Below are positions 1,957-48,368 of a DNA stretch of 64,000 bases, piece by piece. Under the pieces are notes generated by a model that searched no databases, had not been told where the DNA came from, and saw only the letters and a program-made list of their open reading frames with translations. The stretch lies in assembly GCF_988242995.1 (NCBI RefSeq), contig NZ_OZ547043.1; one strand, given 5' to 3'. The position numbers were made by a program, and so were the translations under genes. Position 1 is the stretch's first letter; every line of letters begins with the position of its first letter.

Positions 1957-2012
1957 GTTGACAGCGTGAAAACAGTACGGGTACTGTACTGAAGTCACTT
2001 AAGGAAACAAAC

Positions 2013-2060
2013 ATGAAACACACACCGTTTTTCTTCGCATTCTTTTTTACCTTCCCCTGA
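2013..2060 (+). CDS. pheL: pheA leader peptide (Phe-rich, 15 aa)
   Basis: ATG at 2013 encodes MKHTPFFFAFFFTFP*, 7 Phe codons; precedes attenuator hairpin and pheA. Confidence 0.85.
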   Translation: MKHTPFFFAFFFTFP

Positions 2061-2107
2061 ATGGGAGGCGTTTCGTCGTGTGAAACAGAATGCGAAGACG
2101 AACAATA

Positions 2108-2135
2108 AGGCCTCCCAAATCGGGGGGCCTTTTTT
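2108..2135 (+). terminator. pheA attenuator terminator hairpin
   Basis: aggcctccc-aaatc-ggggggcct stem-loop followed by TTTTT, between pheL and pheA. Confidence 0.7.
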
Positions 2136-2158
2136 ATTGATAACAATAAGGCAACACT

Positions 2159-3362: not shown

Positions 3363-4484
3363 TTACTGGCGACTGTCATTCGCCTGACGCAATAACACGC
3401 GGCTTTCACTCTGAAAACGCTGTGCGTAATCGCCGAACCAGTGCTCCACCTTGCGGAAACTGTCAATAAACGCCTGCTTATCGCCCTGCTCCAGCAACTC
3501 AATCGCCTCGCCGAAACGCTTATAGTAACGTTTGATTAACGCCAGATTACGCTCTGACGACATAATAATGTCGGCATACAGTTGCGGATCTTGGGCAAAC
3601 AGTCGCCCAACCATCGCCAGCTCAAGGCGGTAAATCGGCGAAGAAAGTGCCAGAAGTTGCTCAAGCTGAACATTTTCTTCTGCCAGGTGCAGCCCATAAG
3701 CAAAAGTAGCAAAGTGGCGCAGAGCCTGAATAAACGCCATATTCTGATCGTGCTCGACGGCGCTAATACGATGCAGCCGAGCGCCCCAGACCTGAATTTG
3801 CTCCAGAAACCATTGGTATGCTTCCGGCTTACGTCCATCACACCAGACCACAACTTGCTTTGCCAGGCTACCGCTGTCCGGGCCGAACATCGGGTGTAAC
3901 CCCAGCACCGGACCATCATGCGCCGCCAGCATGGCCTGTAATGGTCCATTTTTCACCGATGCCAGATCGACCAGAATACAATCTTTCGGTAAAGGCGGTA
4001 ATTTGCCAATAACTTGTTCAGTAACGTGGATGGGCACACTAACAATCACCATTCCGGCATCGGCAACAATATCAGCCGCTCGATCCCAGTCATGTTGCTC
4101 CAGAATCCGCACCTGATAACCCGAGAGTGTCAGCATCTTCTCGAACAGACGTCCCATCTGACCGCCACCACCGACGATAACCACCGGGCGCAGTGACGGA
4201 CAAAGCGTTTTAAATCCTTTGTCGTTTTCACTGGAGTAAGATTCACGCATCACCCGACGCAAAACATCCTCAATCAGATCTGGCGGTACACCCAGAGCTT
4301 CCGCCTCTGCACGACGCGAGGCCAACATAGATGCCTCGCGCTCCGGAACATAAATAGGCAGTCCAAAGCGGCTTTTCACCTCGCCCACTTCAGCAACCAG
4401 TTCCAGACGCTTCGCTAATAAATTCAGCAGCGCTTTATCGACTTCATCAATTTGATCGCGTAATGCGGTCAACTCAGCAACCAT
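3363..4484 (-). CDS. tyrA: Bifunctional chorismate mutase / prephenate dehydrogenase
   Basis: 373 aa ORF; GGGGQMG NAD-binding motif; convergent with pheA as in E. coli. Confidence 0.95.
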
Positions 4485-4494
4485 AATAAACCTC

Positions 4495-5565
4495 TTAAGC
4501 CACGCGCGCCGTCAGCTGCCCGTTGAGATCATGATGGATCTCACGCAGTAAGGCATCGGTCATTTCCCAGCTAATGCAGGCATCGGTTACAGACACGCCG
4601 TATTTCATTTCGCTACGCGGCTGTTCGGAAGACTGATTACCTTCGTGGATATTACTTTCAATCATCAGACCAATAATGGAGCGATTACCATCTTTGATCT
4701 GAGCAACCACGGACTCTGCCACCGCAGGCTGACGGCGATAATCTTTATTGGAATTACCGTGGCTGCAATCTACCATCAGAGACGGGCGCAGTCCCGCCTG
4801 TTCCATCTCTTTTTCACATTGCGCAACATCCGCAGGGCTATAGTTCGGCGCTTTACCACCGCGCAGGATCACATGCCCGTCCGGATTCCCCTGAGTTTGT
4901 AGCAACGCCACCTGCCCTGCCTGGTTAATGCCAACAAAACGGTGCGGCTGGGCGGCGGCGCGCATAGCGTTAATTGCTGTTGCCAGACTGCCGTCGGTGC
5001 CGTTTTTAAAACCAACCGGCATGGAAAGCCCGGAGGCCATTTCACGGTGAGTTTGCGATTCCGTTGTACGAGCACCAATTGCTGACCAGCTAAACAGATC
5101 GCCCAGGTATTGCGGGCTATTTGGATCTAACGCTTCCGTCGCCAGTGGCAGTCCCATATTCACCAGCTCAAGCAGCAATTTACGCGCGATCTGCAGCCCG
5201 GCTTCTACATCAAAAGAGCCATCCATATGGGGATCGTTAATCAACCCTTTCCAACCGACAGTGGTACGGGGTTTTTCAAAATAGACGCGCATTACCAGAT
5301 AGAGGCTATCGCTGACCTCTGCGGCAAGGGCTTTAAATCGACGAGCATATTCCAGAGCAGTTTCCGGATCATGAATGGAACAAGGACCACATACTACCAA
5401 CAGACGAGGATCGCGCCCGGCGATAATATCTGAAATGGTTTTACGCGAGTCAGCAATCTGGGCTTCTTGTTGCAGGCTTAATGGAAAAGCGGCCTTCAGT
5501 TGTTCCGGAGTCATTAAAACTTGTTCGTCGGTAATATGTACGTTATTCAGCGCGTCTTTTTGCAT
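4495..5565 (-). CDS. aroF: Tyr-sensitive DAHP synthase
   Basis: ORF track gives 379 aa; start chosen at internal Met ([11 protein letters not shown]...) to give 356 aa as recalled for AroF. Confidence 0.9.
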
Positions 5566-20006: not shown

Positions 20007-20369
20007 GGGGCTGATTCTGGATTCGACGGGATTTGCGAAACCCAAGGTGCATGCCGAGGGGCGGTTGGCCTCGTAAAAAGCCGCAAAAAATAGTCGCAAA
20101 CGACGAAAACTACGCTTTAGCAGCTTAATAACCTGCTTAGAGCCCTCTCTCCCTAGCCTCCGCTCTTAGGACGGGGATCAAGAGAGGTCAAACCCAAAAG
20201 AGATCGCGTGGAAGCCCTGCCTGGGGTTGAAGCGTTAAAACTTAATCAGGCTAGTTTGTTAGTGGCGTGTCCGTCCGCAGCTGGCAAGCGAATGTAAAGA
20301 CTGACTAAGCATGTAGTACCGAGGATGTAGGAATTTCGGACGCGGGTTCAACTCCCGCCAGCTCCACCA
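20007..20369 (+). ncRNA. ssrA: tmRNA (transfer-messenger RNA)
   Basis: Begins ggggctgattctggattcgacggg, contains tag-peptide reading frame (…gcaaacgacgaaaactacgctttagcagcttaa), ends …gggttcaactcccgccagctccacca. Confidence 0.97.
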
Positions 20370-20402
20370 CTTGCTCTTCCGGATACGTCCGGAGAAATCC
20401 TG

Positions 20403-20437
20403 AAAGCCCGCATGGCGCAAGCCCTGTGGGCTTTTTT
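20403..20437 (+). terminator. Probable ssrA terminator
   Basis: aaagccc…gggcttt inverted repeat followed by T-run just 3' of ssrA. Confidence 0.5.
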
Positions 20438-20480
20438 GTGTCTACCGTTGTCCGAGGATATCCAGCTGAGTCCAGTGATT

Positions 20481-20534
20481 ATTGGTATACGTTTAGGTAT
20501 ACGGTAAGATGTATACCTAAATGCGTATACCAAT
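20481..20534. repeat. Imperfect 54-bp palindrome of GGTATACGTTTAGGTATAC motifs upstream of int (candidate Int arm-type / operator sites)
   Basis: attggtatacgtttaggtatac … gtatacctaaatgcgtataccaat; same motif recurs at 32027-32049 near attR. Confidence 0.55.
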
Positions 20535-20553
20535 TCATGAAGGAACGGCCAAA

Positions 20554-21753
20554 GTGGCAAGAACGACACGTCCCCTGACCAACACTGAAGTTCTGCGCGC
20601 TAAAGCGTTAGAAAAGGATCTAACGTTGCATGATGGCGATGGCCTTTTTCTGCTCGTTAAAACGAACGGTAAGAAATTATGGCGTTTCCGCTACCAAAAG
20701 CCAGTAACAAAACAGCGGACCATGATTAGTTTAGGAACCTTCCCTGCACTATCCTTGGCTGAAATCAGAAATGTGCGAGCTAAGTATCTTTCCTTGTTAG
20801 CCAAGGGGATCGATCCACAAACACACAATGAACAAGTCACACAACAACAACAAATTGCAGTAGAAAGTATTTTTTCAAACGTTGCTAAAAATTGGTTTGC
20901 CATTAAACGCAATAGCGTTACACCTGATTATGCAAAGGATATATGGCGATCCTTAGAGAAGGACATTTTCCCTGCTATCGGAGAGATTCCTGTTCAGGAA
21001 ATAAAAGCACGTATATTAATTGAAGCCCTAGAACCAATTAAGGCCCGCGGTGCACTCGAGACTGTTCGTCGTTTGGTGCAACGTATTAACGAAATTATGA
21101 TCTACGCTGTCAATACCGGATTAATTGAGGCTAATCCTGCGTCAGGTATTGGCATGGCTTTTGATAAACCCAAAAAGCAAAATTTGCCAACGCTGCGGCC
21201 AGAAGAATTACCTAAACTGATGCATTCTCTAGTAATGTCAAACCTGTCTATTCCTACTCGTTGTCTGATCGAATGGCAACTACTGACACTCGTTCGCCCT
21301 TCAGAAGCCTCTGGCGCCCGCTGGGATGAGATCGATTTAGAATCCAAACTTTGGAGAATTCCTGCTGAAAGGATGAAAGCAAAGCGCGAACATATAGTTC
21401 CTTTATCATCTCAAGCTTTAATTATTCTTGAAGTAATGAAACCCATAAGTGCTCATCGTGAACATATATTTCCTAGCAGGAATAACCCTCAAGAACCGAT
21501 GAATAGCCAAACAGCAAATGCAGCATTAAAACGCATAGGGTACGGAGGAAAGTTAGTTGCACATGGACTCCGTTCTATTGCCAGCACTGCATTAAATGAA
21601 GCCGAATTTAATTCTGACATTATTGAATCAGCTCTTGCACATGTTGATAAAAATGAGGTGAGAAGAGCATATAACCGCTCCACTTATCTTGATAAACGTA
21701 AAGAGATGATGGCTTGGTGGGGAAATTTTATATATAAAAATAATTCATTATAA
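20554..21753 (+). CDS. int: Tyrosine recombinase, P4-type integrase
   Basis: Start chosen at GTG after aggaa RBS giving 399 aa (…ARTTRPLTNTEVLRAKA…), typical of P4-family integrases; ORF track starts at 20521; C-terminal catalytic region (HGLRS…, …Y). Confidence 0.88.
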   Translation: MARTTRPLTNTEVLRAKALEKDLTLHDGDGLFLLVKTNGKKLWRFRYQKPVTKQRTMISLGTFPALSLAEIRNVRAKYLSLLAKGIDPQTHNEQVTQQQQIAVESIFSNVAKNWFAIKRNSVTPDYAKDIWRSLEKDIFPAIGEIPVQEIKARILIEALEPIKARGALETVRRLVQRINEIMIYAVNTGLIEANPASGIGMAFDKPKKQNLPTLRPEELPKLMHSLVMSNLSIPTRCLIEWQLLTLVRPSEASGARWDEIDLESKLWRIPAERMKAKREHIVPLSSQALIILEVMKPISAHREHIFPSRNNPQEPMNSQTANAALKRIGYGGKLVAHGLRSIASTALNEAEFNSDIIESALAHVDKNEVRRAYNRSTYLDKRKEMMAWWGNFIYKNNSL

Positions 21754-21764
21754 AAGGTATTACA

Positions 21765-22799
21765 ATGAATATTGATTCTATAAAACTTCATTTACAAAAT
21801 TTTTTCACAAATAATCCAACTGTTCTTATCGGTTCTGGCCTCTCTCTCGGTGAGGGGATTCCAGGTATGAAAACATTGGGAGAACATCTTAATACAACTA
21901 TCCCCAAATTAGTAAGCGGGGATCTTATAAGAGAATGGGGTATCATAAGTTCCAAACTAAATAATGGTATGGGACTTGAAGATGCCATGGCATTTCTTAA
22001 AGATGAAAGTGAACTTATCCCATTAATTATTCAGCACACCGCAGATCTTATTTTAAAGCATGAAAATACTGTAATATGCTCTGTAATCAATGGAGAAAAA
22101 AATCTAGCATTTACATCTTTATTGAATCACTTAACTTTTAATCAAAATGAATTGATAATTATAACTCCAAACTATGATAGACTAATTGAAATAGCATGTG
22201 AAATTGCTGGTCTAGAAATTTCAACAGGATTTATCAATAGTTATCATTGTATAAATAATCCTGAAGTTGAGTTAGATAAATTCAAAATCACCCACTCTAT
22301 CAAAACCACACGAGGTAAATCTACAGTTCAAATTAGAACTAAAAAACACGTTAAAATATTTAAACCTCATGGTAGTCTTGATTGGTTCAAGGCTGACGAT
22401 AAAATTATCAGGACCAGCTTTCAAAATAAACATAAAAGATTAATTATTACACCAGGTACAAGTAAATTCAGAGCTGGATATCAGCAGCCTTTTGATTGGC
22501 ATAGAGAAAAAGCAAACCATTATATCAAAAGAGCAAAATCACTATTAATTATTGGCTATGGGTTTAATGATGAGCAGTTAGAAGTACATTTGAAATCAAA
22601 AATACGTGAAAAAATACCTGTTTTATTAATGACATATGAATTGACATCAAACGCTCAAAAAATATGTGATGATAATCCTTCTATAACATATGTTATTGCA
22701 GAAGGAAACAATTCCATCGTTTGTATCGATGGCATTAAATATAAAATCGAAAAGAATATTTGGTCTTTAAATGAGTTTGTTAAAGAGGTACTTAAATAA
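21765..22799 (+). CDS. SIR2-like (NAD-binding/NADase family) protein, putative defence effector
   Basis: 344 aa; Rossmann-like VLIGSGLS, TPNYD and KPHGSL motifs as in SIR2/DUF4020 defence proteins; AT-rich; 11 bp after int stop. Confidence 0.75.
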   Translation: MNIDSIKLHLQNFFTNNPTVLIGSGLSLGEGIPGMKTLGEHLNTTIPKLVSGDLIREWGIISSKLNNGMGLEDAMAFLKDESELIPLIIQHTADLILKHENTVICSVINGEKNLAFTSLLNHLTFNQNELIIITPNYDRLIEIACEIAGLEISTGFINSYHCINNPEVELDKFKITHSIKTTRGKSTVQIRTKKHVKIFKPHGSLDWFKADDKIIRTSFQNKHKRLIITPGTSKFRAGYQQPFDWHREKANHYIKRAKSLLIIGYGFNDEQLEVHLKSKIREKIPVLLMTYELTSNAQKICDDNPSITYVIAEGNNSIVCIDGIKYKIEKNIWSLNEFVKEVLK

Positions 22800-24583
22800 T
22801 GGAATATTACGTCATTAACACTGATGAAACATGCTTTATCGGACGAATCGCAAATGTTGATACCGATCGTGCTATTATCATTTCAGAGTCTCCAGAGATC
22901 ATACAAGAACTAACCGTTTTTGACTTGGTTGCTATTGAAGGCAATACCCCCACAGAGTTTCTTGTTGGTATCATTGAAAAAGTAAAACGCTCTATTGGAG
23001 AAATACAAACTATTGATACTGAAGAAAATATTGAAGATGACAGTGAAAAAGATTTCGATAATATCTTCCAAACTTATTCTATCGATCATGATATTCTTCA
23101 AGTAGCTCTTATCGGCACTTTCTGGGAGGTTTACGGGGATAGAAGGAAAATTTTTAAAAGAGGAGCACAATATTTTCCAAAAGTTGAAAAACAAGCATTT
23201 CTTATAAAAAAAGACAGTCTTGAGAAATTAATGTCGGCAGTCGACAATGATACTCCTGATGAGCTAAAACTCATACTAGGCAACTATGGAAATACCAATT
23301 CACGAGCAGTTGCAAATGGGGATAAATTATTTCAGAGACATGCTGCCCTATTGGGGAGTACTGGTTCAGGTAAAAGTTGGACAGTTGCGTCATTACTAGA
23401 ACAAGCCTCAAAATTAAAATACAACAATATTGTACTTTATGATCTTCATGGTGAATACAAAACTTTATCTGATACACATAATAAATCGAACCGCCCGAGC
23501 ATAGCCGATTATTTTAAAATTGCAAGCCCAGGAAATATCGACGATGTAAATAGTATTTATGTACCTCATTGGTTATTAAACAAAGAAGAAATGCTATCAC
23601 TGTTGTTAGATAGAAGCGATAGCAATGCACCTAATCAGGCAGCAAGATTTAGCTACCACGTGAGAGAGCTAAAAAAAGAATACATCACACACAACAGATT
23701 AATACACTTAGAAGATTGTTTGACTGTTGATGCTCCAATACCCTACTCTATCGAGGATCTTATTAGCAGACTGCACGATGATGATCAAGGTATGAAAAAA
23801 GGTACTAATAATAAAGAAATAAAAGGTGATTGGAATGGAAAACTAACAAGATTCATAAGCAGGTTAAGAACAAAAGTAGACGACAAGAGGAACTGTTTTC
23901 TATTCTCAAATAAACCAGAACACAACCAATATGATTGGTTGGAGAAATACGCTTGTAAAATTTTAAAATCAGATAGCACAGATCATGGCATTAAAATAAT
24001 TGATTTTTCTGAAGTTCCTTCAGATATTATGCCTATTGTTATTGGTGTATTGACCAGATTTTTATACAACGTCCAATTTTGGAGATGTGAGACCGAACGA
24101 ACCCCTATAGCATTCGTTTGTGACGAAGCTCATATTTATTTACCCGCTAAGGATACCACTGAGGCTGAAACAAAAATATCCTTATCAATATTCGAGAAAA
24201 TTGCTAAAGAAGGCAGAAAGTACGGAGTATCTTTATTAGTCGTCAGCCAAAGACCTTCTGATGTTAGCAGAACAATACTAAGTCAATGTAATAACATAAT
24301 TTCTCTCAGACTAAGTAATTATAGAGATCAACAGGTAGTTAGTCGGTTAATGCCTGATTCATTGAGTTCATTAACATCCATACTACCAATTCTTGATACT
24401 GGGGAAGCAATAGTTCTTGGCGACTCTGTTCTATTACCAGCTAGAATAAAATTGAATCCACCAACACTCAAGCCCGATAGCGCAACCAGAGCTTTTTGGA
24501 ATGAGTGGGGGGCAATTGAAGCAAAAGAAATCTCTATAGCAAATGCTGTTGAATCACTCAGGAGACAATCTCGTAATCGCTAA
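22799..24583 (+). CDS. HerA-like P-loop ATPase (FtsK/HerA superfamily), partner of the SIR2 protein
   Basis: 594 aa; Walker A GSTGSGKS, Walker B FVCDEAH; start overlaps SIR2 stop (TAATG). Confidence 0.75.
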   Translation: MEYYVINTDETCFIGRIANVDTDRAIIISESPEIIQELTVFDLVAIEGNTPTEFLVGIIEKVKRSIGEIQTIDTEENIEDDSEKDFDNIFQTYSIDHDILQVALIGTFWEVYGDRRKIFKRGAQYFPKVEKQAFLIKKDSLEKLMSAVDNDTPDELKLILGNYGNTNSRAVANGDKLFQRHAALLGSTGSGKSWTVASLLEQASKLKYNNIVLYDLHGEYKTLSDTHNKSNRPSIADYFKIASPGNIDDVNSIYVPHWLLNKEEMLSLLLDRSDSNAPNQAARFSYHVRELKKEYITHNRLIHLEDCLTVDAPIPYSIEDLISRLHDDDQGMKKGTNNKEIKGDWNGKLTRFISRLRTKVDDKRNCFLFSNKPEHNQYDWLEKYACKILKSDSTDHGIKIIDFSEVPSDIMPIVIGVLTRFLYNVQFWRCETERTPIAFVCDEAHIYLPAKDTTEAETKISLSIFEKIAKEGRKYGVSLLVVSQRPSDVSRTILSQCNNIISLRLSNYRDQQVVSRLMPDSLSSLTSILPILDTGEAIVLGDSVLLPARIKLNPPTLKPDSATRAFWNEWGAIEAKEISIANAVESLRRQSRNR

Positions 24584-24608
24584 TAAAAATATTATCTAGC
24601 AACGCGCA

Positions 24609-24627
24609 GTGCTTTCCCCGCCTCGCC
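24609..24627 (-). other. P2/P4-type cos site (19-nt cohesive end sequence)
   Basis: gtgctttccccgcctcgcc is the exact reverse complement of the recalled P2/P4 cohesive end GGCGAGGCGGGGAAAGCAC. Confidence 0.75.
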
Positions 24628-24727
24628 CGCCCGCTTTGCGGGGCGGTTTCAGTGCAGTTGCACTGACACGCTCAGGCCGCGCCGGGAATGGCGCGGTCTG
24701 CAGAAAATGAGGCAGGAAAACGCATGC

Positions 24728-24762
24728 AAAGCCATGCACCTTATCGATGCATGGCTTTTTTC
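24728..24762 (+). terminator. Rho-independent terminator between cargo operon and psu
   Basis: gccatgca-ccttatcga-tgcatggc hairpin followed by TTTTTT. Confidence 0.6.
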
Positions 24763-24791
24763 AGTAAAAACGGGCGGATTTTCGGGGAATT

Positions 24792-25364
24792 TTACACAGA
24801 CTGATGTGATGCCAGTTGCGCACTTTTACGCGAAAAAATCATGTTCTGCGCAGGAGTGAATTTTTCACGGCTGTCATCCACCGAAGCCGCGTCAGGCCTG
24901 AATCCGATGGTCGTTAAAATGTCGCTATCCTGTGCGGAATAATTAATTTTTTCACCCTTCGCAAGCCAGGACTGGAGGGCTTCACGCAGGGCATCTGTGG
25001 CACGCTGTATGGCACAGTTTCGGGCAATGGCCGTCAGCTCACTGTAGCCCATCAGCTCCGGTGCCAGTGCCGCCGCCAGTGCTGTGCCGTGCTGCTGCAT
25101 AAAATCATTCAGCCGGTCGCGGATGCTGATGTGCTGAACGGCTTCATGCGAACGAATATAACGACCGGCGGCCTGATTCACCTGCCATTTTCTGACTTCG
25201 ATAATATTGCGTAATTCGTCCAGGCGACTGACGTTTCTGCCTTCTCCTGACAGAAGCCGCAGGTATTCCTGTTCGGCCGCTGCCAGCTCATTTTTGCGTT
25301 GCAGCCATGCTGCTTTGTTATTCTGACAGGTGTCAAAGGCCTGCTGTAAGGCTGTGCTTTCCAT
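24792..25364 (-). CDS. psu: Polarity suppression protein Psu (P4-like)
   Basis: 190 aa ORF MESTALQQAFDTCQNNKAAWLQRK…, recalled as P4 Psu; length matches. Confidence 0.85.
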   Translation of the reverse strand: MESTALQQAFDTCQNNKAAWLQRKNELAAAEQEYLRLLSGEGRNVSRLDELRNIIEVRKWQVNQAAGRYIRSHEAVQHISIRDRLNDFMQQHGTALAAALAPELMGYSELTAIARNCAIQRATDALREALQSWLAKGEKINYSAQDSDILTTIGFRPDAASVDDSREKFTPAQNMIFSRKSAQLASHQSV

Positions 25365-25437
25365 CGTTATCTCTTTCTCATCATGCTGAAGAATAAAAAT
25401 ACGGTGTGCGGCGACGGCCGGTGTTAACCGGCAGCCC

Positions 25438-25938
25438 TCATTCCAGACGCAGCGAATATGATTGTGTTTTTAACCGTACTGGCGGCAGTTCCTGTTTTTC
25501 ATGCAGGCGTTCTGCCAGTTCGTCCGGCGTGACCGGGCGGACAATGAAACGGTTGATGGTCTGAAGCGTTTTAAACACCAGACCACAGCCCGGATCCGTG
25601 CACACATAAAAACGCTCGGTGACTTCCTGAGACAGACGCCGCGATGTTCTTGACAGTGCAAGGCCTTTACATCTCCGACAACAATATCCGGTAACAAGCA
25701 TTCTTTTCGGCCGTTTCATACTGCCGGAGGCTGACGTCAGTGAATCGCGGTATCTCTGTTTGCCTGAAATGTATTCCATTCCTGAATCTTTACAGTCAGA
25801 GAAAAAGCTTTCACTCGCTTCAAATGTCGCAGAGCAATAAATATTCCGGCACTGTGCAATCATTATCTTGGTGCCATCGTCCATGAAATGTGCGCGACGG
25901 GTGTGAGCAACATGTCCACACGACGGGCAGTAAATCAT
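25438..25938 (-). CDS. delta: Late-gene transcriptional activator Delta (Ogr/Delta zinc-finger family)
   Basis: 166 aa; CPSCGH…C…C zinc-finger at N-terminus and a second Cys cluster; same size as P4 Delta. Confidence 0.85.
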   Translation of the reverse strand: MIYCPSCGHVAHTRRAHFMDDGTKIMIAQCRNIYCSATFEASESFFSDCKDSGMEYISGKQRYRDSLTSASGSMKRPKRMLVTGYCCRRCKGLALSRTSRRLSQEVTERFYVCTDPGCGLVFKTLQTINRFIVRPVTPDELAERLHEKQELPPVRLKTQSYSLRLE

Positions 25939-26669
25939 GACAGCAGCCCTCTGGCCTTAAGCTCTGCTCCCTGCTGGTCTATTTTGTCCTGCCACACCTT
26001 GCGCTGTGCCGGTGTGCCTGCCACCTCATAATCCATGTGCGGGAGTGTTGCCGCTGACAGTCCGGCCAGCCGGAGAACCGGCTCGCCGGTGAGGCTGATT
26101 TGCATCTGTTTTATTTTCTGTTCCAGCGATGATTTCACCTGCTGCATGACAGCCTTTTCCGGCGCGACGTAGCCCTGATGGCCGGTGGTGTTGGCGAGCG
26201 GATTTTCCTGTACCAGGATGCTCAGATGCATTGCCCGGACAAGCGCCTCACAGGTTTCATTCAGGGCGTGTTCCAGCTCATGCTCTGCATACAGACTCAG
26301 CAGGTGATGATGTGCCTTCCGGTAGGCGGTGGCCGTGCTGTCACACGCCCCTTTCAGGCGTTCACATTCAAAATTCAGCACCACGGCCAGATTGTCATAT
26401 TCCTGTACCAGCTCCCGGCGTGCCACGCGCTCAATGTGGCGCTGTTTCAGCTCATCGCTCAGGACACCACCGGCTGCACGAAAGGCCGTGCGCCAGTCGT
26501 CAGCGTCGTTTCCGTCGGCCTGCGTCAGCGCATTTTTTTCCTGCTCTGCCCGTTCAATGGCCGTGATGGTCTCATCCATCAGGCGGGCGTTCTCAAGATG
26601 AGCGGCTCTGGCCTTTTCCAGTTGTGCCAGCGCGGGTTGCAGATATTCAGGGATGGTGTTGTCAGACAT
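25935..26669 (-). CDS. sid: Capsid size determination protein Sid (P4-like)
   Basis: Start chosen at MSDNTIPEYLQPALAQLEKAR (244 aa); ORF track extends 22 codons upstream; overlaps delta start. Confidence 0.8.
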   Translation of the reverse strand: MSDNTIPEYLQPALAQLEKARAAHLENARLMDETITAIERAEQEKNALTQADGNDADDWRTAFRAAGGVLSDELKQRHIERVARRELVQEYDNLAVVLNFECERLKGACDSTATAYRKAHHHLLSLYAEHELEHALNETCEALVRAMHLSILVQENPLANTTGHQGYVAPEKAVMQQVKSSLEQKIKQMQISLTGEPVLRLAGLSAATLPHMDYEVAGTPAQRKVWQDKIDQQGAELKARGLLS

Positions 26670-26703
26670 TTTCCGGCTCCTCGTCACTTCAGGTTGAGAA
26701 AAT

Positions 26704-26759
26704 TGTGACGTACACCGGACAACAACACGACGCATTGCAGATGTGCCAGCCCTGACACA
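26704..26759 (-). promoter_or_regulatory. Candidate Psid late promoter with two TGT-N12-ACA Delta/Ogr-type dyads
   Basis: tgt-gacgtacaccgg-aca (26704-26721) and tgt-gccagccctgac-aca (26742-26759), centres 38 bp apart, immediately upstream of sid. Confidence 0.6.
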
Positions 26760-26838
26760 GGAGACTCATCCTCAGACCGGCAAGCCAGGAAAAGGTCGCA
26801 GGAAAAACCGGCTTACTGTTTGTTTTTTTATATTTTAC

Positions 26839-26942
26839 TGTTCACCTCTGTTCACCTTAAGAAAAAAGATAAGTAATACAGTAAGTTAAAGGATGAACAA
26901 TCGCAGTAATGACTGTTCACCGTCTGTTCACCACTGTTCACC
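26839..26942. repeat. Cluster of five direct TGTTCACC octamers (P4 ori-like alpha-binding iterons)
   Basis: tgttcacc at 26839, 26849, 26914, 26925, 26935; same octamer recurs in repeats downstream of alpha. Confidence 0.7.
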
Positions 26943-27101
26943 CGCTCATGGACTTTTTGTGCTGTTTACTACTGTTTGTTTTTATTAATTCGCCGGGAAT
27001 GAATAAGAAGAAACGATTTGTATTTCACTATAAAAATTACGAATTGCTTTAAGTGGCTTTAAATGACTTTAAGTGGAGATGAACAAAAAATACACAAGCA
27101 T

Positions 27102-27119
27102 TGTAAGGCTGCCGGAACA
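27102..27119 (+). promoter_or_regulatory. Candidate Delta-dependent leftward-operon promoter element (TGT-N12-ACA)
   Basis: tgt-aaggctgccgga-aca upstream of the AlpA/Vis-like gene; an imperfect second dyad follows. Confidence 0.35.
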
Positions 27120-27221
27120 AATCCCCCCTGTTGCGTCTGCCGAAAATATTCACAAAATAAAGCGCTACCCGAAGCCGGACGGACTTATCCGGTGCTGTAT
27201 GGACATTAACGAGGTAGCCCG

Positions 27222-27488
27222 ATGCAATCTGTTTTTTCTTCCCCGTCTCCCGCCCCAGTGACGCCACTGATGCCGCTGCCGGACATCACGCAGGAGCGTT
27301 TTTTACGTCTGCCGGAAGTGATGCACCTGTGCGGCCTGTCACGCTCGACCATCTATGAACTTATCCGTAAGGGGGAATTTCCGCCGCAGGTGAGTCTTGG
27401 CGGTAAAAATGTGGCCTGGCTGCACTCTGAAGTCACCGCATGGATGGCCGGGCGCATTGCCGGACGCAAACGGGGGTACGACGCATGA
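27222..27488 (+). CDS. AlpA/Vis-family small DNA-binding protein (excisionase/regulator)
   Basis: …[52 protein letters not shown] is AlpA-like HTH; a later start at Met-17 (27270) is possible. Confidence 0.75.
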
Positions 27489-27886
27489 TGATGCCCGCTC
27501 TGCAAAAAGTCCCTTTTTCTGGCTTGCCTTTTTCCGGCATTTGCGGATATAGTTTTTCCGCTGCCGCAAAATCGGCAGCCGGGCGTGGAAACCCGAGTAT
27601 GTTATCGGCGACATATGACGCGCCATGCGTCTTTTTTTGTGTCGCAATCAACGCCACAGAGCGCCAGATTATGGTGTGGTGTGTGGTCAGTCGAGCAAAT
27701 GGCACTCCGTGCATTCTGCCCGCGTCCGCTCATTATACCGCAGAGTCAATGGTAGCTCAGGCGGGGCAGCCTCCGCGCTGGCCGGTTTCCGATAACGCCG
27801 GTATTTCCACCCCCGTCTGGGCTATCGCCATCGAGCGTGGAAACTCCGGCGATAGCGTCATTTACGCTGTTATCGGAGGTTGCCTT

Positions 27887-28084
27887 ATGGCTACGACCCT
27901 TATCCCCTCACACCCTGAATTTGTCTTTGTGTTTGCGGCTGTCCGTCGCGCAGACCGTCATCCCCGTATCTGTATGCTTCGCACCGTCGCCGGTGATGAA
28001 CGCAGCGCCCGCCGTTCCCTTGTCCGTGACTATGTGCTCTCCCTTGCTGCCCGTCTGCCGGTGGTGGAGGTGTCCCGTGCGTAA
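27887..28084 (+). CDS. Small hypothetical protein (65 aa) in satellite left operon
   Basis: ATG 7 nt after GGAGG; lies within long frame 27440-28084; overlaps next gene start. Confidence 0.35.
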
Positions 28085-28364
28085 TAAAAAAGCCCCTCAG
28101 ACCGTCTCAGCACGTCATGACGCCCGTGAACACCTCAGCATTGAGGCTTACCATAAGCTCAACCGCGCCAGCGCCGTATCCCAGTTTGTTGGGGGTGATT
28201 TGATTCACCGTGAACTCTCCGGCCTGCATCAGCTCTACATTCCGCATATTTTCAGCTACCTGAATGAAGATATTGATTTTGTGCTGAATGAGCTGAAAGC
28301 CAAAGGCCTGTGCCGCGATTTTCTCGCCCAGCAGAAAGACCGGGGAGACAGGACGCATGTTTGA
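28077..28364 (+). CDS. Hypothetical 95-aa protein, candidate P4 epsilon-like (anti-repressor) by position and size
   Basis: GTG start after ggagg; 95 aa, same size as P4 epsilon and directly upstream of a 151-aa ORF; sequence identity not verified. Confidence 0.4.
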
Positions 28365-28812
28365 TTTTCCCCAGCCCGGTGAGATTTACCGTTCTGCCGG
28401 TTTTCCCGATGTGGCCGTGGTCGGCATTCTGGAAGACGGTATTCCGTGGGAAATGCCGTACCGCTGCCCGGACATTGTCTGGAACCCGTACCGCCGTAAA
28501 TTCAGTATCCTTGTGCGTATCCTCGCTGACGGGCGCACCACAGACATCCCGCTGGGGCGTTTTCTGCGGGAATTTACCTGTGACCGTCCTGACCTGTTTA
28601 AACGCAGCCCCGTAAACCGGCATGCGGTACTGAAAGAAATGGCCGGAGACCCGGAATTACAGAAATGGCGGGAGAAATATCTGGATATTTACCCGCAGGA
28701 CCCTGTTCCGGTCAGCCGGGCGGCACCGGTGGCGCGGGAATGGCGGGAAATTCCCCGCACGGAGCCTGACCCGGAAACCACCCCGGATAACAGTTACCGC
28801 AATTATCTGTAA
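28357..28812 (+). CDS. Hypothetical protein, P4 orf151-like
   Basis: 151 aa ORF, start overlaps preceding stop (ATGTTTGA); position and length match P4 orf151. Confidence 0.55.
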   Translation: MFDFPQPGEIYRSAGFPDVAVVGILEDGIPWEMPYRCPDIVWNPYRRKFSILVRILADGRTTDIPLGRFLREFTCDRPDLFKRSPVNRHAVLKEMAGDPELQKWREKYLDIYPQDPVPVSRAAPVAREWREIPRTEPDPETTPDNSYRNYL

Positions 28813-28947
28813 TTAAAAAACGACACCCGAAAAATTAAATGTGCGTATTCGCGCAGGGATACGCACGTCTTCAGGAGACGCAGATATGCCTTATCAGTTA
28901 ATGCAACCGGCACGGAATGCAGTCATCTGTCACAGGGAGGAAAACAA

Positions 28948-29268
28948 ATGAAAACACCCTTACCGCCCGTCTTACGCGCTGCCCTTTACCGTCGCGCTGT
29001 CGCCTGTGCCTGGCTGACCGTGTGCGAACGTCAGCACCGCTACCCGCATCTCACCCTTGAGTCACTGGAGGCGGCCATCGCCGCTGAGCTGGAAGGCTTT
29101 TATCTGCGCCAGCACGGTGAGGAAAAAGGGCGTCAGATAGCCTGTGCCCTGCTGGAAGATTTAATGGAATCCGGCCCCCTGAAGGCCGCGCCGTCGCTGT
29201 CCTTTCTCGGGCTGGTTGTGATGGATGAACTCTGTGCCCGTCACATAAAAGCGCCGGTACTGCACTGA
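28948..29268 (+). CDS. Hypothetical 106-aa protein, candidate Cnr-like copy-number regulator
   Basis: 106 aa ORF immediately upstream of alpha, as for P4 cnr; assignment by position and size only. Confidence 0.4.
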
Positions 29269-29282
29269 AGGAGAACAACACC

Positions 29283-31616
29283 ATGAAAATGAACGTAACC
29301 GCCACCGTCAGCCATGCGCTCGGCCACTGGCCGCGTATTCTCCCGGCGCTGGGGATTCAGGTGCTGAAGAACCATCATCAGCCCTGTCCGGTCTGTGGCG
29401 GGAGTGACCGCTTCCGTTTTGATGACAGGGAGGGGCGCGGCACCTGGTACTGCAATCAGTGTGGTGCCGGTGACGGCCTGAAACTGGTTGAAAAGGTGTT
29501 TGGTGTCTCCCCGTCCGACGCGGCCGCAAAGGTGGCTGCCGTGACCGGCAGTCTGCCCCCGGCTGACCCGGCAGTGACGGCTGCCGCCGTTGCTGAAACA
29601 GACGCTGCCCGGAAGAACGCCGCCGCACTGGTACAAACCCTGATGGCAAAAACCCGTCCCGGAACCGGTAACGCCTACCTGACCCGCAAGGGCTTTCCCG
29701 GCCGGGAATGCCGGATGCTGACCGGCACACACAGAGCCGGTGGCGTGAGCTGGCGCGCCGGTGACCTTGTGGTGCCACTGTATGACGACAGCGGCGAACT
29801 GGTTAACCTTCAGTTAATCAGTGCTGACGGCCGTAAGCGCACCCTGAAAGGCGGACAGGTCAGGGGCACCTGTCACACCCTTGAAGGACAGAATCAGGCC
29901 GGAAAACGTCTGTGGATAGCGGAGGGATACGCGACCGCACTTACCGTGCATCACCTGACCGGTGAAACGGTGATGGTGGCGCTTTCTTCCGTGAATCTCC
30001 TTTCTCTGGCCAGCCTTGCCCGGCAGAAGCATCCGGCCTGTCAGATTGTCCTTGCTGCTGACCGTGACCTCAGCGGTGACGGCCAGAAAAAAGCCGCCGC
30101 AGCCGCAGATGCGTGTGAAGGTGTTGTTGCCCTGCCGCCGGTCTTCGGTGACTGGAATGATGCCTTCACGCAGTACGGCGGGGAAGCCACCCGTAAGGCC
30201 ATTTATGATGCCATCCGGCCACCGGCTGAAAGCCCGTTCGACACCATGAGCGAAGCGGAGTTTTCCGCCATGAGTACCAGCGAAAAGGCCATGCGTATCT
30301 ATGAGCATTACGGCGAGGCGCTCGCGGTCGATGCCAACGGCCAGCTTCTGTCCCGCTATGAAAATGGTGTCTGGAAGGTGCTGCCGCCACAGGACTTTGC
30401 CCGGGATGTGGCCGGGCTGTTTCAGCGTCTGCGAGCGCCGTTCTCCTCCGGGAAGGTGGCCTCCGTGGTGGACACCCTGAAGCTGATTATTCCGCAGCAG
30501 GAAGCCCCCTCCCGCCGCCTGATTGGCTTTCGTAACGGCGTGCTCGACACGCAGAACGGCACGTTCCACCCGCACAGTCCGTCACACTGGATGCGCACCC
30601 TGTGCGATGTGGATTTCACCCCGCCGGTGGACGGTGAAACGCTGGAAACCCACGCCCCCGCCTTCTGGCGCTGGCTTGACCGTGCCGCCGGTGGCCGTGC
30701 GGAAAAACGCGACGTGATTCTGGCTGCACTGTTTATGGTGCTGGCAAACCGCTACGACTGGCAGCTCTTTCTGGAGGTGACCGGTCCCGGCGGCAGCGGC
30801 AAAAGTATCATGGCCGAAATCGCCACCCTGCTGGCCGGGGAGGATAACGCCACGTCGGCCACCATCGAGACGCTGGAATCCCCGCGTGAACGTGCCGCGT
30901 TAACTGGCTTCTCACTGATACGCCTGCCGGATCAGGAAAAATGGAGCGGCGACGGTGCCGGACTCAAGGCCATCACCGGCGGCGATGCGGTGTCCGTTGA
31001 CCCGAAATACCGGGATGCGTACTCCACGCACATCCCGGCGGTGATTCTGGCCGTGAACAATAACCCGATGCGCTTCACCGACCGCAGCGGCGGCGTGTCA
31101 CGCCGGCGGGTGATTATTCACTTCCCGGAACAGATAGCCCCGCAGGAGCGCGACCCGCAGCTTAAGGACAAAATCACCCGCGAGCTGGCGGTCATCGTGC
31201 GTCACCTGATGCAGAAGTTCAGCGACCCGATGCTCGCCCGGTCACTGCTTCAGTCCCAGCAGAACTCAGACGAGGCACTGAACATCAAACGGGATGCCGA
31301 CCCGACGTTTGATTTTATCGGCTATCTGGAAACCCTGCCGCAGACCAGCGGCATGTATATGGGGAACGCCAGTATCATCCCGCGTAATTACCGTAAATAC
31401 CTCTATCACGCCTATCTGGCCTACATGGAGGCAAACGGCTACCGGAATGTACTCAGTCTGAAAATGTTCGGACTGGGGCTGCCGGTGATGCTGAAAGAAT
31501 ACGGGCTGAATTACGAGAAGCGCCATACCAAACAGGGGATACAGACCAACCTGACGCTGAAAGAAGAAAGCTACGGCGACTGGCTGCCAAAATGTGACGA
31601 CCCTGCAACAGCCTGA
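29283..31616 (+). CDS. alpha: Alpha primase-helicase replication protein (P4-like)
   Basis: 777 aa, same length as P4 alpha; zinc-binding primase motif CPVCGGSDRFRF…YCNQCG; Walker A GPGGSGKS. Confidence 0.9.
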   Translation: MKMNVTATVSHALGHWPRILPALGIQVLKNHHQPCPVCGGSDRFRFDDREGRGTWYCNQCGAGDGLKLVEKVFGVSPSDAAAKVAAVTGSLPPADPAVTAAAVAETDAARKNAAALVQTLMAKTRPGTGNAYLTRKGFPGRECRMLTGTHRAGGVSWRAGDLVVPLYDDSGELVNLQLISADGRKRTLKGGQVRGTCHTLEGQNQAGKRLWIAEGYATALTVHHLTGETVMVALSSVNLLSLASLARQKHPACQIVLAADRDLSGDGQKKAAAAADACEGVVALPPVFGDWNDAFTQYGGEATRKAIYDAIRPPAESPFDTMSEAEFSAMSTSEKAMRIYEHYGEALAVDANGQLLSRYENGVWKVLPPQDFARDVAGLFQRLRAPFSSGKVASVVDTLKLIIPQQEAPSRRLIGFRNGVLDTQNGTFHPHSPSHWMRTLCDVDFTPPVDGETLETHAPAFWRWLDRAAGGRAEKRDVILAALFMVLANRYDWQLFLEVTGPGGSGKSIMAEIATLLAGEDNATSATIETLESPRERAALTGFSLIRLPDQEKWSGDGAGLKAITGGDAVSVDPKYRDAYSTHIPAVILAVNNNPMRFTDRSGGVSRRRVIIHFPEQIAPQERDPQLKDKITRELAVIVRHLMQKFSDPMLARSLLQSQQNSDEALNIKRDADPTFDFIGYLETLPQTSGMYMGNASIIPRNYRKYLYHAYLAYMEANGYRNVLSLKMFGLGLPVMLKEYGLNYEKRHTKQGIQTNLTLKEESYGDWLPKCDDPATA

Positions 31617-31623
31617 CCCACCT

Positions 31624-31648
31624 GACCGGCATCTGCCGGTCTTTTTTT
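31624..31648 (+). terminator. Rho-independent terminator after alpha
   Basis: gaccggca/tgccggtc stem followed by TTTTTTT. Confidence 0.6.
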
Positions 31649-31666
31649 ATCCCTGAATCCCCCGAA

Positions 31667-31962
31667 GGTGAACAATCCAGTGTTCACCCTTCACCGTATA
31701 TTCACCCGTTATCACACTGAAATTAAAAGAGAAAAACGAAAGGTGAACAGTGTGAACAATCAAATCAAAAAAAACTTTTTTTCTTCCTGTGTGATTTTCA
31801 GCACGGGAAATTAATCCCCTGCACAAGTCACACCGGCAGAATGCCGGAGGTGAAGAATCGAATGTTCACCCTTCACCCATTATTCACCACCTATCACTCT
31901 GAAATAAAAGGAGAAAACAGAAAGGTGAACAGTGTGAACAGTTCTTTCGAAAAAAAATTTTT
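31667..31962. repeat. crr-like region: two ~115-bp direct repeats carrying TGTTCACC / GGTGAACA iterons
   Basis: Repeat units at ~31667-31790 and ~31849-31962 (ggtgaa.aatc..atgttcacccttcacc…aaaggtgaacagtgtgaaca…aaaaaa.ttttttt), period ~182 bp. Confidence 0.75.
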
Positions 31963-32026
31963 TTCCTGTACGATATAGCATCAATCCAAGTAAAAATGCG
32001 CTTTCATTTCACATTAACTTACAGCC

Positions 32027-32049
32027 ATTGGTATACGATTAGGTATACG
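32027..32049. repeat. Distal copy of GGTATACG(A/T)TTAGGTATACG motif near attR
   Basis: attggtatacgattaggtatacg, direct repeat of 20481-20503. Confidence 0.55.
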
Positions 32050-32106
32050 CACAAAAAATGAATTAAACAAAATCATTAAAAATCAAAGCAATACAATATT
32101 TATTCA

Positions 32107-32124
32107 AACTCCGCCAGCTCCACC
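32107..32124 (+). repeat. attR: imperfect direct repeat of ssrA 3' end
   Basis: actccgccagctccacca versus ssrA end actcccgccagctccacca (20351-20369). Confidence 0.75.
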
Positions 32125-32285
32125 AATCATGATTGAACGGTGCAAGGACAACACCAACAAAAACAGGAAGTTATAAGTCTCAGCAAGACACCGACCAGAC
32201 GGTGAGGAGACAAAAAAGGATACGCAAAGGAGCCGCGGCTCCTGGTGATATGAAAGCCCACAGATGTGGGCTTTTTCGTTGATGG

Positions 32286-48202: not shown

Positions 48203-48368
48203 CCCATGCCGGAGGCGACGCTGCGCGTCTTGTCCGGCCCACGAAAATGTAGGTCGGATAAGGCGTTTACGCCGCATCCGACATTCGGCGCACCATGCCG
48301 GAGGTGACGCTTTGCGTCTTGTCCGGCCTACGAGAATCCAGGTCGGGTAAGGCGGAGCCGCTCTCCGG
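48203..48368. repeat. REP/BIME-type palindromic repeats between gabT and gabP
   Basis: Two near-identical units gccggaggcgacgctgcgcgtcttgtccggcc…aggtcggataaggcg / gccggaggtgacgctttgcgtcttgtccggcc…aggtcgggtaaggcg. Confidence 0.8.

What the first reader, a model, noticed from the sequence alone, without database searches (positions are those of the whole stretch)
24609..24627. Exact P2/P4 cohesive-end (cos) 19-mer inside the prophage
gtgctttccccgcctcgcc is the exact reverse complement of the recalled 19-nt cohesive end GGCGAGGCGGGGAAAGCAC. It falls between the cargo genes and psu, so the defence cargo would sit at one end of packaged linear DNA. An intact cos implies the satellite can still be packaged by a helper terminase.
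Basis: partly seen in the sequence, partly recalled or inferred. Interest (0 to 1): 0.5.

Follow-up and report, generated by a model that had tools for sequence, protein, structure and literature searches.

The report
P4 satellite packaging (cos) site
The 19-base sequence is the genuine DNA-packaging cut site of a complete P4-type phage satellite carrying a SIR2–HerA defence system; this is a well-documented arrangement, so the finding is correct but ordinary.

Summary
GGCGAGGCGGGGAAAGCAC lies once in the window, on the minus strand at 24609–24627. It is identical to nt 1–19 of phage P4 and to the annotated cosL/cosR of phage P2.

The 19-mer sits inside the 55-bp P2/P4 cos core (window 24602–24656). 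That core is 51/55 identical to P4 and 50/55 to P2, while P4 and P2 share 52/55. It lies 25 bp beyond the HerA stop codon and 164 bp beyond the psu stop codon.

The element is bounded by attL (tmRNA 3′ end) and attR and measures 11,756 bp, against 11,624 bp for P4. All seven P4-like core genes are present and full length. The backbone is about 98% identical to P4. Only the integrase/att module and the cargo (SIR2–HerA) differ.

"Intact cos" needs one qualification. The core has C instead of T at position −25, which was invariant in 113 surveyed cos flanks, and a rare G at −23. The same variant flank is found in six unrelated E. coli genomes, in satellites at tRNA-Sec with other cargos. Those satellites are far less diverged than the adjacent chromosome, so the variant appears transmissible.

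A defence hotspot next to cos in P4-like satellites, SIR2+HerA included, was published by Rousset et al. 2022. The finding is already known and of low interest.

The parts
24609..24627 (-). 19-nt cohesive-end sequence GGCGAGGCGGGGAAAGCAC. The inferred staggered terminase nicks fall between 24628/24627 on the minus strand and between 24608/24609 on the plus strand.
   Evidence: Exact and unique in the window. Identical to P4 nt 1–19 and to P2 cosL/cosR. The nick positions are inferred from the ends of the linear P4 and P2 records.
24602..24656 (-). 55-bp cos core shared by P2 and P4 (positions −29 to +25 relative to the first base of the 19-mer). Window-specific bases: C at −25 (24652), G at −23 (24650), T at +25 (24602).
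   Evidence: 51/55 identical to P4 and 50/55 to P2; P4 and P2 share 52/55. Conservation collapses outside this block in 113 distinct flanks. The literature describes a 55-bp cos.
24627..24646 (-). Inverted repeat CCGCCCCGCAAAGCGGGCGG that abuts and overlaps the first base of the 19-mer.
   Evidence: Read directly from the sequence. The outer 6-bp arms are conserved in P4, P2 and the surveyed flanks, while the loop varies.
24649..24666 (.). Perfect 8+2+8 inverted repeat TCAGTGCA-GT-TGCACTGA, created by the two variant bases. P4 has an interrupted version.
   Evidence: Sequence. There is no covariation between −36 and −25 in the survey, so the pairing is probably not the constrained feature.
24731..24761 (+). 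GC-rich hairpin GCCATGCA(9-nt loop)TGCATGGC followed by TTTTTT. It is a terminator-like element between the convergent HerA and psu genes and is flanked by A-runs and T-runs on both sides.
   Evidence: Sequence and fold. The consensus scan missed it because the loop exceeds 8 nt. It is identical in P4. Its function is inferred.
20347..20369 (+). attL: the 3′ end of the tmRNA gene ssrA (20007–20369).
   Evidence: Direct repeat with 32103–32125. tmRNA called by ARAGORN and Rfam.
20554..21753 (+). Tyrosine integrase targeting ssrA, not the P4 leuX type (35.6% aa identity to P4 Int).
   Evidence: PHROG integrase. NCBIfam PRK09692 scores 598 bits against a cutoff of 434. tblastn against P4 Int.
21765..22799 (+). 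SIR2 protein of the SIR2–HerA defence cargo.
   Evidence: PADLOC SIR2, E=1e-124, full length.
22799..24583 (+). HerA ATPase of the SIR2–HerA cargo. Its stop codon lies 25 bp from the 19-mer.
   Evidence: PADLOC HerA, E=9e-210, full length.
24792..25364 (-). psu (polarity suppression / capsid decoration).
   Evidence: PHROG 6366, E=2e-100. 98.4% aa identity to P4 Psu, full length.
25438..25938 (-). delta (activator of helper late genes).
   Evidence: 98.2% aa identity to P4 Delta, full length.
25935..26669 (-). sid (capsid size determination).
   Evidence: 98.0% aa identity to P4 Sid, 244 aa.
27222..27488 (+). ORF88/vis (AlpA-family regulator).
   Evidence: 97.7% aa identity to P4 ORF88. Homologues are annotated as AlpA family.
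27547..27832 (+). P4 immunity RNA region: c4-a1b1 targets and isrK (27547–27637), and the C4/CI antisense RNA (27745–27832).
   Evidence: Rfam matches above gathering thresholds.
28077..28364 (+). epsilon (helper derepression).
   Evidence: 98.9% aa identity to P4 epsilon, full length.
29283..31616 (+). alpha primase-helicase.
   Evidence: 99.2% aa identity to P4 alpha, 777 aa.
31662..31965 (+). crr (cis replication region): two ~120-bp direct repeats.
   Evidence: Repeat family D1. Aligns to P4 crr 4291–4590.
32103..32125 (+). attR. It lies 11,756 bp from attL.
   Evidence: Direct repeat of the tmRNA 3′ end.

Best explanation
Window 24602–24656 is the cos site of a complete P4-like phage satellite integrated at ssrA. 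The proposed mechanism has three steps, all inferred from P2/P4 biology rather than shown here. First, when a P2-family helper is active, the satellite excises as an 11.76-kb circle and replicates. Second, the helper terminase recognises the ~55-bp core and makes staggered nicks at the two edges of the 19-mer. Third, the linear DNA, with 19-nt 5′ cohesive ends, is packaged into Sid-shrunken capsids. In that linear molecule the left end reads: overhang, 25 bp, then HerA–SIR2–int. The right end is psu. The defence cargo therefore sits at the left terminus, as gop/beta/cII do in P4. What is shown here is sequence identity, conserved context, synteny, completeness of the element, and spread of the same cos variant in other strains.
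For: The 19-mer is exact and unique. It is identical to P4 nt 1–19 and to the annotated P2 cosL/cosR. The 55-bp core is 51/55 identical to P4 and 50/55 to P2, against 52/55 between P4 and P2. Conservation in 113 distinct flanks defines exactly this block, and sequences diverge completely 6–7 nt past the 19-mer on the cargo side. Window 24603–31963 is 97.9% identical to P4 across the cos junction. All P4 backbone proteins are full length at 98–100% identity. The immunity RNAs are present. The crr repeats and att repeats are present, and the element is 11,756 bp against 11,624 bp for P4. The same variant cos flank (100% over 198 nt) occurs in six other complete E. coli genomes at tRNA-Sec, with GapS4 or dCTP-deaminase cargo. 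In those strains the integrase is 100% identical between five of the six strains (SC476 carries a different integrase, about 88% identical) and cos–sid is 99.7–100% identical across all six, across hosts whose adjacent chromosome differs by 1.6–1.7%. The literature supports a 55-bp cos, 19-nt ends and closed circles as the packaging substrate, a core cos shared by P2 and P4, and a hotspot adjacent to cos that includes SIR2+HerA.
Against: The core has C at −25, where T was found in 113/113 distinct surveyed flanks. Exact-pattern scans for the C variant found none in IMG/VR or in the metagenome collection, against 107 matches for the canonical control. G at −23 and T at +25 are also rare. No helper prophage lies in the 64-kb window. 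The vis/AlpA regulator is P4-type while the int/att module is not, so efficient excision is assumed rather than shown. No packaging data exist for this element.
Confidence: 0.8

Rival explanations
1. The site descends from a cos site but is functionally weakened or dead. The substitution at the invariant −25 position, with −23 and +25, would impair terminase recognition. The element would then be an immobilised, domesticated defence island.
For: T at −25 is invariant in 113/113 distinct flanks. The C variant has 0 hits in IMG/VR and metagenomes, against 107 for the canonical pattern. Only 6 of about 1,067 E. coli genomes with a full-length match share it. Two members of that lineage show decay: a psu internal stop in EM10-18-28 and an IS21 insertion in WWCOL-236. 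Flanking sequence can change cosmid transduction by 10^4-fold or more.
Against: The variant flank is linked to three different cargos and two different integrase/att modules. It occurs in near-identical satellites across host backgrounds that differ by 1.6–1.7% in adjacent DNA, which suggests recent transfer. Every backbone gene in the window is intact. Two of 70 surveyed natural cores also carry a private change at an otherwise invariant position.
Confidence: 0.15
2. The conserved hairpin-rich HerA–psu intergenic region now serves mainly as a terminator for the two convergent transcription units, and the cos function is incidental or vestigial.
For: The interval holds four inverted repeats; folded as a single strand it gives z = −4.9 against shuffles. 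A hairpin followed by a T-run lies at 24731–24761.
Against: The terminator-like hairpin lies outside the 55-bp core. Conservation of the core across P2-like phages, where the gene context differs (portal gene Q on one side), follows packaging rather than local transcription. The two roles are not mutually exclusive.
Confidence: 0.04
3. The match is a chance occurrence of a GC-rich 19-mer unrelated to packaging.
For: None beyond the GC-rich composition.
Against: Only 0.01 matches are expected even with 3 mismatches allowed. The position is syntenic with P4 and the flank is 98% identical to P4.
Confidence: 0.01

Closest known systems
cos site of satellite phage P4 (X51522 / NC_001609)
   Same: The 19-nt cohesive end is identical. 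The 55-bp core is 51/55 identical. The position downstream of psu is the same. The psu-side flank and the backbone through alpha and crr are 97.9% identical.
   Different: There are four core differences: −25 T→C, −23 A→G, +19 C→T (the P2-type base) and +25 C→T. Everything beyond +25 differs: HerA–SIR2–int(ssrA) replaces gop–beta–cII–int(leuX).
cos site of helper phage P2 (NC_001895, cosL/cosR)
   Same: The 19-mer is identical. The core is 50/55 identical, including T at +19. The adjacent CCGCCC…GGGCGG inverted repeat is the same.
   Different: Outside the core there is no homology. In P2 the site lies between old/tin and the portal gene Q.
P4-like satellite defence hotspot between psu and int (Rousset et al. 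2022, PMC9122126; de Sousa & Rocha 2021, PMC8628076)
   Same: The cargo lies between int and psu, directly adjacent to cos. SIR2+HerA is one of the systems listed for this hotspot. Cargo varies between otherwise similar satellites.
   Different: Nothing of substance differs. This instance combines an ssrA-type integrase with a near-P4 backbone and a rare cos-flank variant.
The satellite of E. coli EC21GDE043 (NZ_CP099721), at ssrA
   Same: The int–SIR2–HerA–cos–psu arrangement is the same, at 99.7–99.8% identity in the int/cargo module. It shares T at +25 and G at −23.
   Different: It has the canonical T at −25. Its ori region is only 93% identical and its sid 98.4% identical to the window. 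The downstream chromosome context differs.

Membership tests
P2/P4-type cos site | 19-nt cohesive-end sequence GGCGAGGCGGGGAAAGCAC | tested here: met
   Exact match at 24609–24627 on the minus strand. Equals P4 nt 1–19 and the annotated P2 cosL/cosR.
P2/P4-type cos site | ~55-bp conserved core around the cohesive end, shared by P2 and P4 | tested here: met
   51/55 identical to P4 and 50/55 to P2, against 52/55 between P4 and P2. Caveat: C at −25, where 113/113 surveyed flanks have T.
P2/P4-type cos site | Syntenic position: immediately downstream of psu in satellites, at the junction with the variable region | tested here: met
   164 bp from the psu stop. The end of the P4 record abuts the 19-mer. 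The same layout is seen in other satellites, for example L003–L005 and L235–L241.
P2/P4-type cos site | Cleavage by P2-family terminase to give 19-nt 5′ overhangs, and packaging of the circle | not testable with these tools
   Needs a transduction or end-mapping experiment. The only support is indirect: horizontal spread of satellites with the same flank.
P4-like satellite, Type A (seven core components; PMC8628076) | Co-localised integrase, psu, delta, sid, alpA, epsilon and alpha | tested here: met
   All seven are present and full length. alpA corresponds to ORF88/vis at 97.7% identity to P4 ORF88.
P4-like satellite, Type A (seven core components; PMC8628076) | Element bounded by att repeats, about 11 kb, compatible with the small P4 capsid | tested here: met
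   attL 20347–20369 and attR 32103–32125 are spaced 11,756 bp apart; P4 is 11,624 bp.
P4-like satellite, Type A (seven core components; PMC8628076) | Dependence on, and mobilisation by, a P2-like helper | not testable with these tools
   No helper lies in the window. The rest of the genome was not available.
psu–int defence hotspot of P4-like satellites (PMC9122126) | Variable cargo between int and psu, adjacent to cos, differing between otherwise similar satellites | tested here: met
   About 104 genomes share the ssrA int, backbone and ypjA context but carry other cargo. Satellites with an identical cos flank carry GapS4 or dCTP deaminase.
SIR2–HerA defence system | Adjacent SIR2-domain and HerA-ATPase genes matching defence-system profiles | tested here: met
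   PADLOC SIR2 E=1e-124 and HerA E=9e-210, both full length. The NCBIfam equivalog models score below their cut-offs, so this is a divergent subtype. Anti-phage activity was not tested.

The most novel reading that the evidence does not exclude
The rare cos-flank variant (C at −25, G at −23) turns P4's interrupted repeat into a perfect 8+2+8 palindrome. It marks a small lineage of satellites at selC and ssrA. This lineage might have altered terminase recognition, for example a changed packaging efficiency or a preference for a particular P2-family helper. If so, helper specificity could be tuned at the cos flank rather than only by proteins.
Probability: 0.08. Interest if true: 0.35.

Novelty: already known. 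Interest (0 to 1): 0.12.

Why it matters
The result confirms that the SIR2–HerA defence genes ride on a complete, P4-sized satellite with its packaging site in place. They are therefore probably transferable between E. coli strains by P2-family helpers. This is one more example of the published principle that P4-like satellites shuttle defence systems in a hotspot next to cos. The only new detail is a rare variant at an otherwise invariant position of the cos core. It could serve as a natural test case for which flank bases the P2 terminase actually needs.

Tried and rejected
- **Primary literature.** I tried to read Ziermann & Calendar 1990 and Christie & Calendar 2016. Neither is held. The exact functional limits of cos therefore rest on secondary citations.
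- **Variant scans.** Exact-pattern scans for the window's flank variant found nothing in IMG/VR or in the metagenome collection, which suggested a private mutation or a sequencing error. A BLAST of complete E. coli genomes then found six identical flanks, so that idea was rejected.
- **Recombination breakpoint at cos.** I tested whether the window's element shows a sharp breakpoint exactly at cos. It does not. The backbone is a patchwork, and psu/delta are equally close to both candidate parents.
- **Pairing constraint.** I tested whether the palindrome made by the two variants reflects a pairing constraint. There is no covariation: −36 varies freely while −25 is fixed.
- **Terminator scan.** The consensus scan found no terminator.
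- **Helper search.** I looked for a P2-like helper or a second cos in the window and found none.
- **Technical.** Two scripts failed because L002 was not yet exported to /data.

Full report
**Observation.** The + strand at 24609–24627 reads gtgctttccccgcctcgcc. Its reverse complement, GGCGAGGCGGGGAAAGCAC, occurs exactly once in the 64-kb window, even with up to three mismatches allowed; 0.01 matches are expected by chance. The linear P4 record X51522 begins with these 19 bases. The P2 RefSeq record annotates the same 19 bases as 'cosL; left cohesive end' (1–19) and 'cosR' (33575–33593).

**Context test.** A BLAST of the intergenic region against phage records aligned window 24628–24800 to P4 11452–11624 at 97.1%. 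The alignment stops at the physical right end of P4, directly next to the 19-mer. I rebuilt the circular junctions of P4 and P2 and aligned them with the window. All three share one block and nothing else: TGCAyTrAAACCGCCCCG..AAGCGGGCG | 19-mer | yGCGCGy.

Positions are numbered from the first G of the 19-mer (position 0 = window 24627). On that scale the block runs from −29 to +25, which is window 24602–24656. It is 55 bp, matching the '55-bp cos' of the literature. The window is 51/55 identical to P4 and 50/55 to P2, while P4 and P2 share 52/55. Against doubled P4, window 24603–31963 aligns at 97.9% from P4 nt 25 back across the junction, through psu, delta, sid, the immunity region, epsilon and alpha, to crr at nt 4291.

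**The element.** The tmRNA gene lies at 20007–20369. Its last 23 nt are repeated at 32103–32125, 11,756 bp away; P4 is 11,624 bp. The contents between the repeats are:
- **Integrase, 20554–21753.** NCBIfam PRK09692 scores above its cut-off. It is only 35.6% identical to P4 Int.
- **SIR2, 21765–22799, and HerA, 22799–24583.** PADLOC gives E = 1e-124 and 9e-210, both full length.
- **cos**, as described above.
- **P4 backbone genes.** psu, delta, sid, ORF88/vis, epsilon, ORF151, ORF106 and alpha are all full length at 98–100% amino-acid identity to P4, with no gaps.
- **Immunity RNA region.** Rfam C4, c4-a1b1 and isrK match above gathering thresholds.
- **crr repeats**.

All seven markers that define a Type A P4-like satellite are therefore present. 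P4's gop, beta, cII, int and attP are replaced by a different cargo and a different int/att module. The rest of the window is ordinary E. coli chromosome (recN, smpB, ypjA, ileY, the gab operon, nrdHIEF). It holds no helper prophage and no second cos.

**How it most likely works.** These steps are inferred from established P2/P4 biology and were not shown here.
- The substrate is the excised, replicated closed circle.
- The P2-family terminase recognises the core and nicks at the two edges of the 19-mer. This gives a left end whose 5′ overhang GGCGAGG… is followed after 25 bp by the HerA stop codon, then SIR2 and int. The right end finishes just past psu.
- The cargo therefore sits at the left terminus, as gop/beta/cII do in P4.

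**Qualification of 'intact'.** I then compared 113 distinct flanks: 89 next to a P2-type portal gene, 17 next to psu, and 7 unclassified. Conservation is high from about −35 to +25 and collapses outside that range.

Within the core the window has three unusual bases:
- **C at −25 (window 24652).** T was found in 113/113 flanks.
- **G at −23 (window 24650).** A was found in 101/113. The only G was in a locus I had fetched myself.
- **T at +25 (window 24602).** C was found in 110/113.

Exact-pattern scans for the C variant found nothing in IMG/VR or in the metagenome collection. The canonical control found 107 stretches in the metagenome collection.

The two right-flank changes convert P4's interrupted repeat into a perfect 8+2+8 palindrome at 24649–24666. 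However, −36 varies freely in the survey while −25 is fixed. The constraint therefore looks sequence-specific rather than a pairing constraint.

**The variant is not a private lesion.** Six of 5,426 complete E. coli genomes carry a flank 100% identical over window 24603–24800. All six are P4-like satellites at tRNA-Sec with a different integrase. Five carry GapS4a/b cargo and one carries an anti-phage dCTP deaminase.

Some of these hosts differ by 1.6–1.7% in the adjacent yicI–yicJ DNA. Across such hosts the integrase is 100% identical between the five strains that share it (SC476 carries a different one, about 88% identical), and cos-to-sid is 99.7–100% identical across all six. This fits recent horizontal spread of satellites carrying this cos, although routes other than packaging are not excluded. 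In addition, 2 of 70 surveyed natural cores carry a private change at an otherwise invariant position. I therefore judge the site probably functional (about 0.8), with a weakened-cos rival at about 0.15.

**Mosaicism.** The int–SIR2–HerA module is 99.7–99.8% identical to that of E. coli EC21GDE043. This is the only complete genome with this cargo next to cos. The sid and ori regions are closer to the selC lineage. The breakpoint is not sharply at cos.

About 104 genomes share the ssrA integrase family, the backbone and the ypjA context, but carry other cargos. In every satellite compared, similarity on the cargo side ends 6–7 nt after the 19-mer.

**Comparison with what is known.**
- Rousset et al. 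2022 describe this arrangement. [quoted passage not shown] SIR2+HerA is listed among its systems. P2 and P4 share a core cos.
- The same authors propose that cohesive ends may seed the cargo exchange.
- de Sousa & Rocha 2021 define the seven-component family and note that the int–psu region includes cos.
- A 2026 preprint documents rapid swapping of these loci.

The finding is therefore a correct recognition of a known feature in a known type of element. Novelty is 'already known' and interest is low.

**Limits.** The primary cos paper was not available. The sequence requirements of the P2 terminase at single-base resolution are not known to me. Packaging, excision and the presence of a helper in the source genome could not be tested.

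Noticed in passing
window 20347–32125: The satellite combines a near-P4 backbone (about 98% nt identity) with an ssrA-targeting integrase that is only 35.6% identical to P4 Int. It occupies the ssrA–ypjA site. From my own knowledge (not checked here), this is where E. coli K-12 carries the cryptic prophage CP4-57. The vis/AlpA regulator is P4-type while int/att is not, so whether excision control still matches is open.
   Followed up: partly
window 24603–27638 versus L236–L241; 19900–24627 versus L003: The backbone is a mosaic. int–SIR2–HerA is 99.7–99.8% identical to EC21GDE043. The ori region is only 93.3% identical to that strain but 98.7% identical to the selC-integrated lineage. No sharp breakpoint falls at cos.
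   Followed up: yes
L237 5690–6262; L240 7916–10223: Two members of the selC lineage that share the variant cos flank show decay: psu has an internal stop in EM10-18-28, and an IS21 element is inserted between sid and vis in WWCOL-236.
   Followed up: no
window 21753–21765 and 22796–22799: The int stop and the SIR2 start are only 12 bp apart, and the SIR2 stop overlaps the HerA start. The cargo may be co-transcribed with int, reading towards and across cos before the hairpin and T-run at 24731–24761.
   Followed up: no
window 24628–24791: The psu–cos interval holds four successive inverted repeats. Folded as single-stranded DNA it is far more stable than shuffles (z = −4.9). Three of the four lie outside the 55-bp core, and the interval differs from P4 at only four positions (97.6% identity). 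Any role in packaging efficiency is unknown.
   Followed up: partly
window 27222–28076: The vis–cI immunity segment is the most diverged part of the backbone (94.6% nt to P4; the old 'cI ORF137' is 87.7% aa). The satellite may have a different immunity specificity from P4.
   Followed up: no
metagenome loci L128–L234: Next to the canonical right flank, natural 19-mers vary. About 66 of 103 are the P2/P4 type. About 15 read GGCGTGGCGGGGAAAGCAT, which I recall as the phage 186 type (not checked here). Several further variants occur.
   Followed up: partly
window 21765–24583: SIR2 and HerA match PADLOC models over their full length. Against the NCBIfam 'antiphage' equivalog models they score far below the curated cut-offs (38 against 500 bits; 289 against 850 bits). 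This is a divergent SIR2–HerA subtype.
   Followed up: no
window 39941–40016: ARAGORN calls a tRNA with anticodon CAT as tRNA-Met. RefSeq annotates the syntenic gene in GMF065 as tRNA-Ile (probably ileY, whose CAT anticodon is modified to read an isoleucine codon).
   Followed up: partly
window 2012–2137; 48252–48328: A Phe leader (pheA attenuator) and an naRNA4 match (nucleoid-associated noncoding RNA 4). Both are ordinary chromosomal features unrelated to the finding.
   Followed up: no
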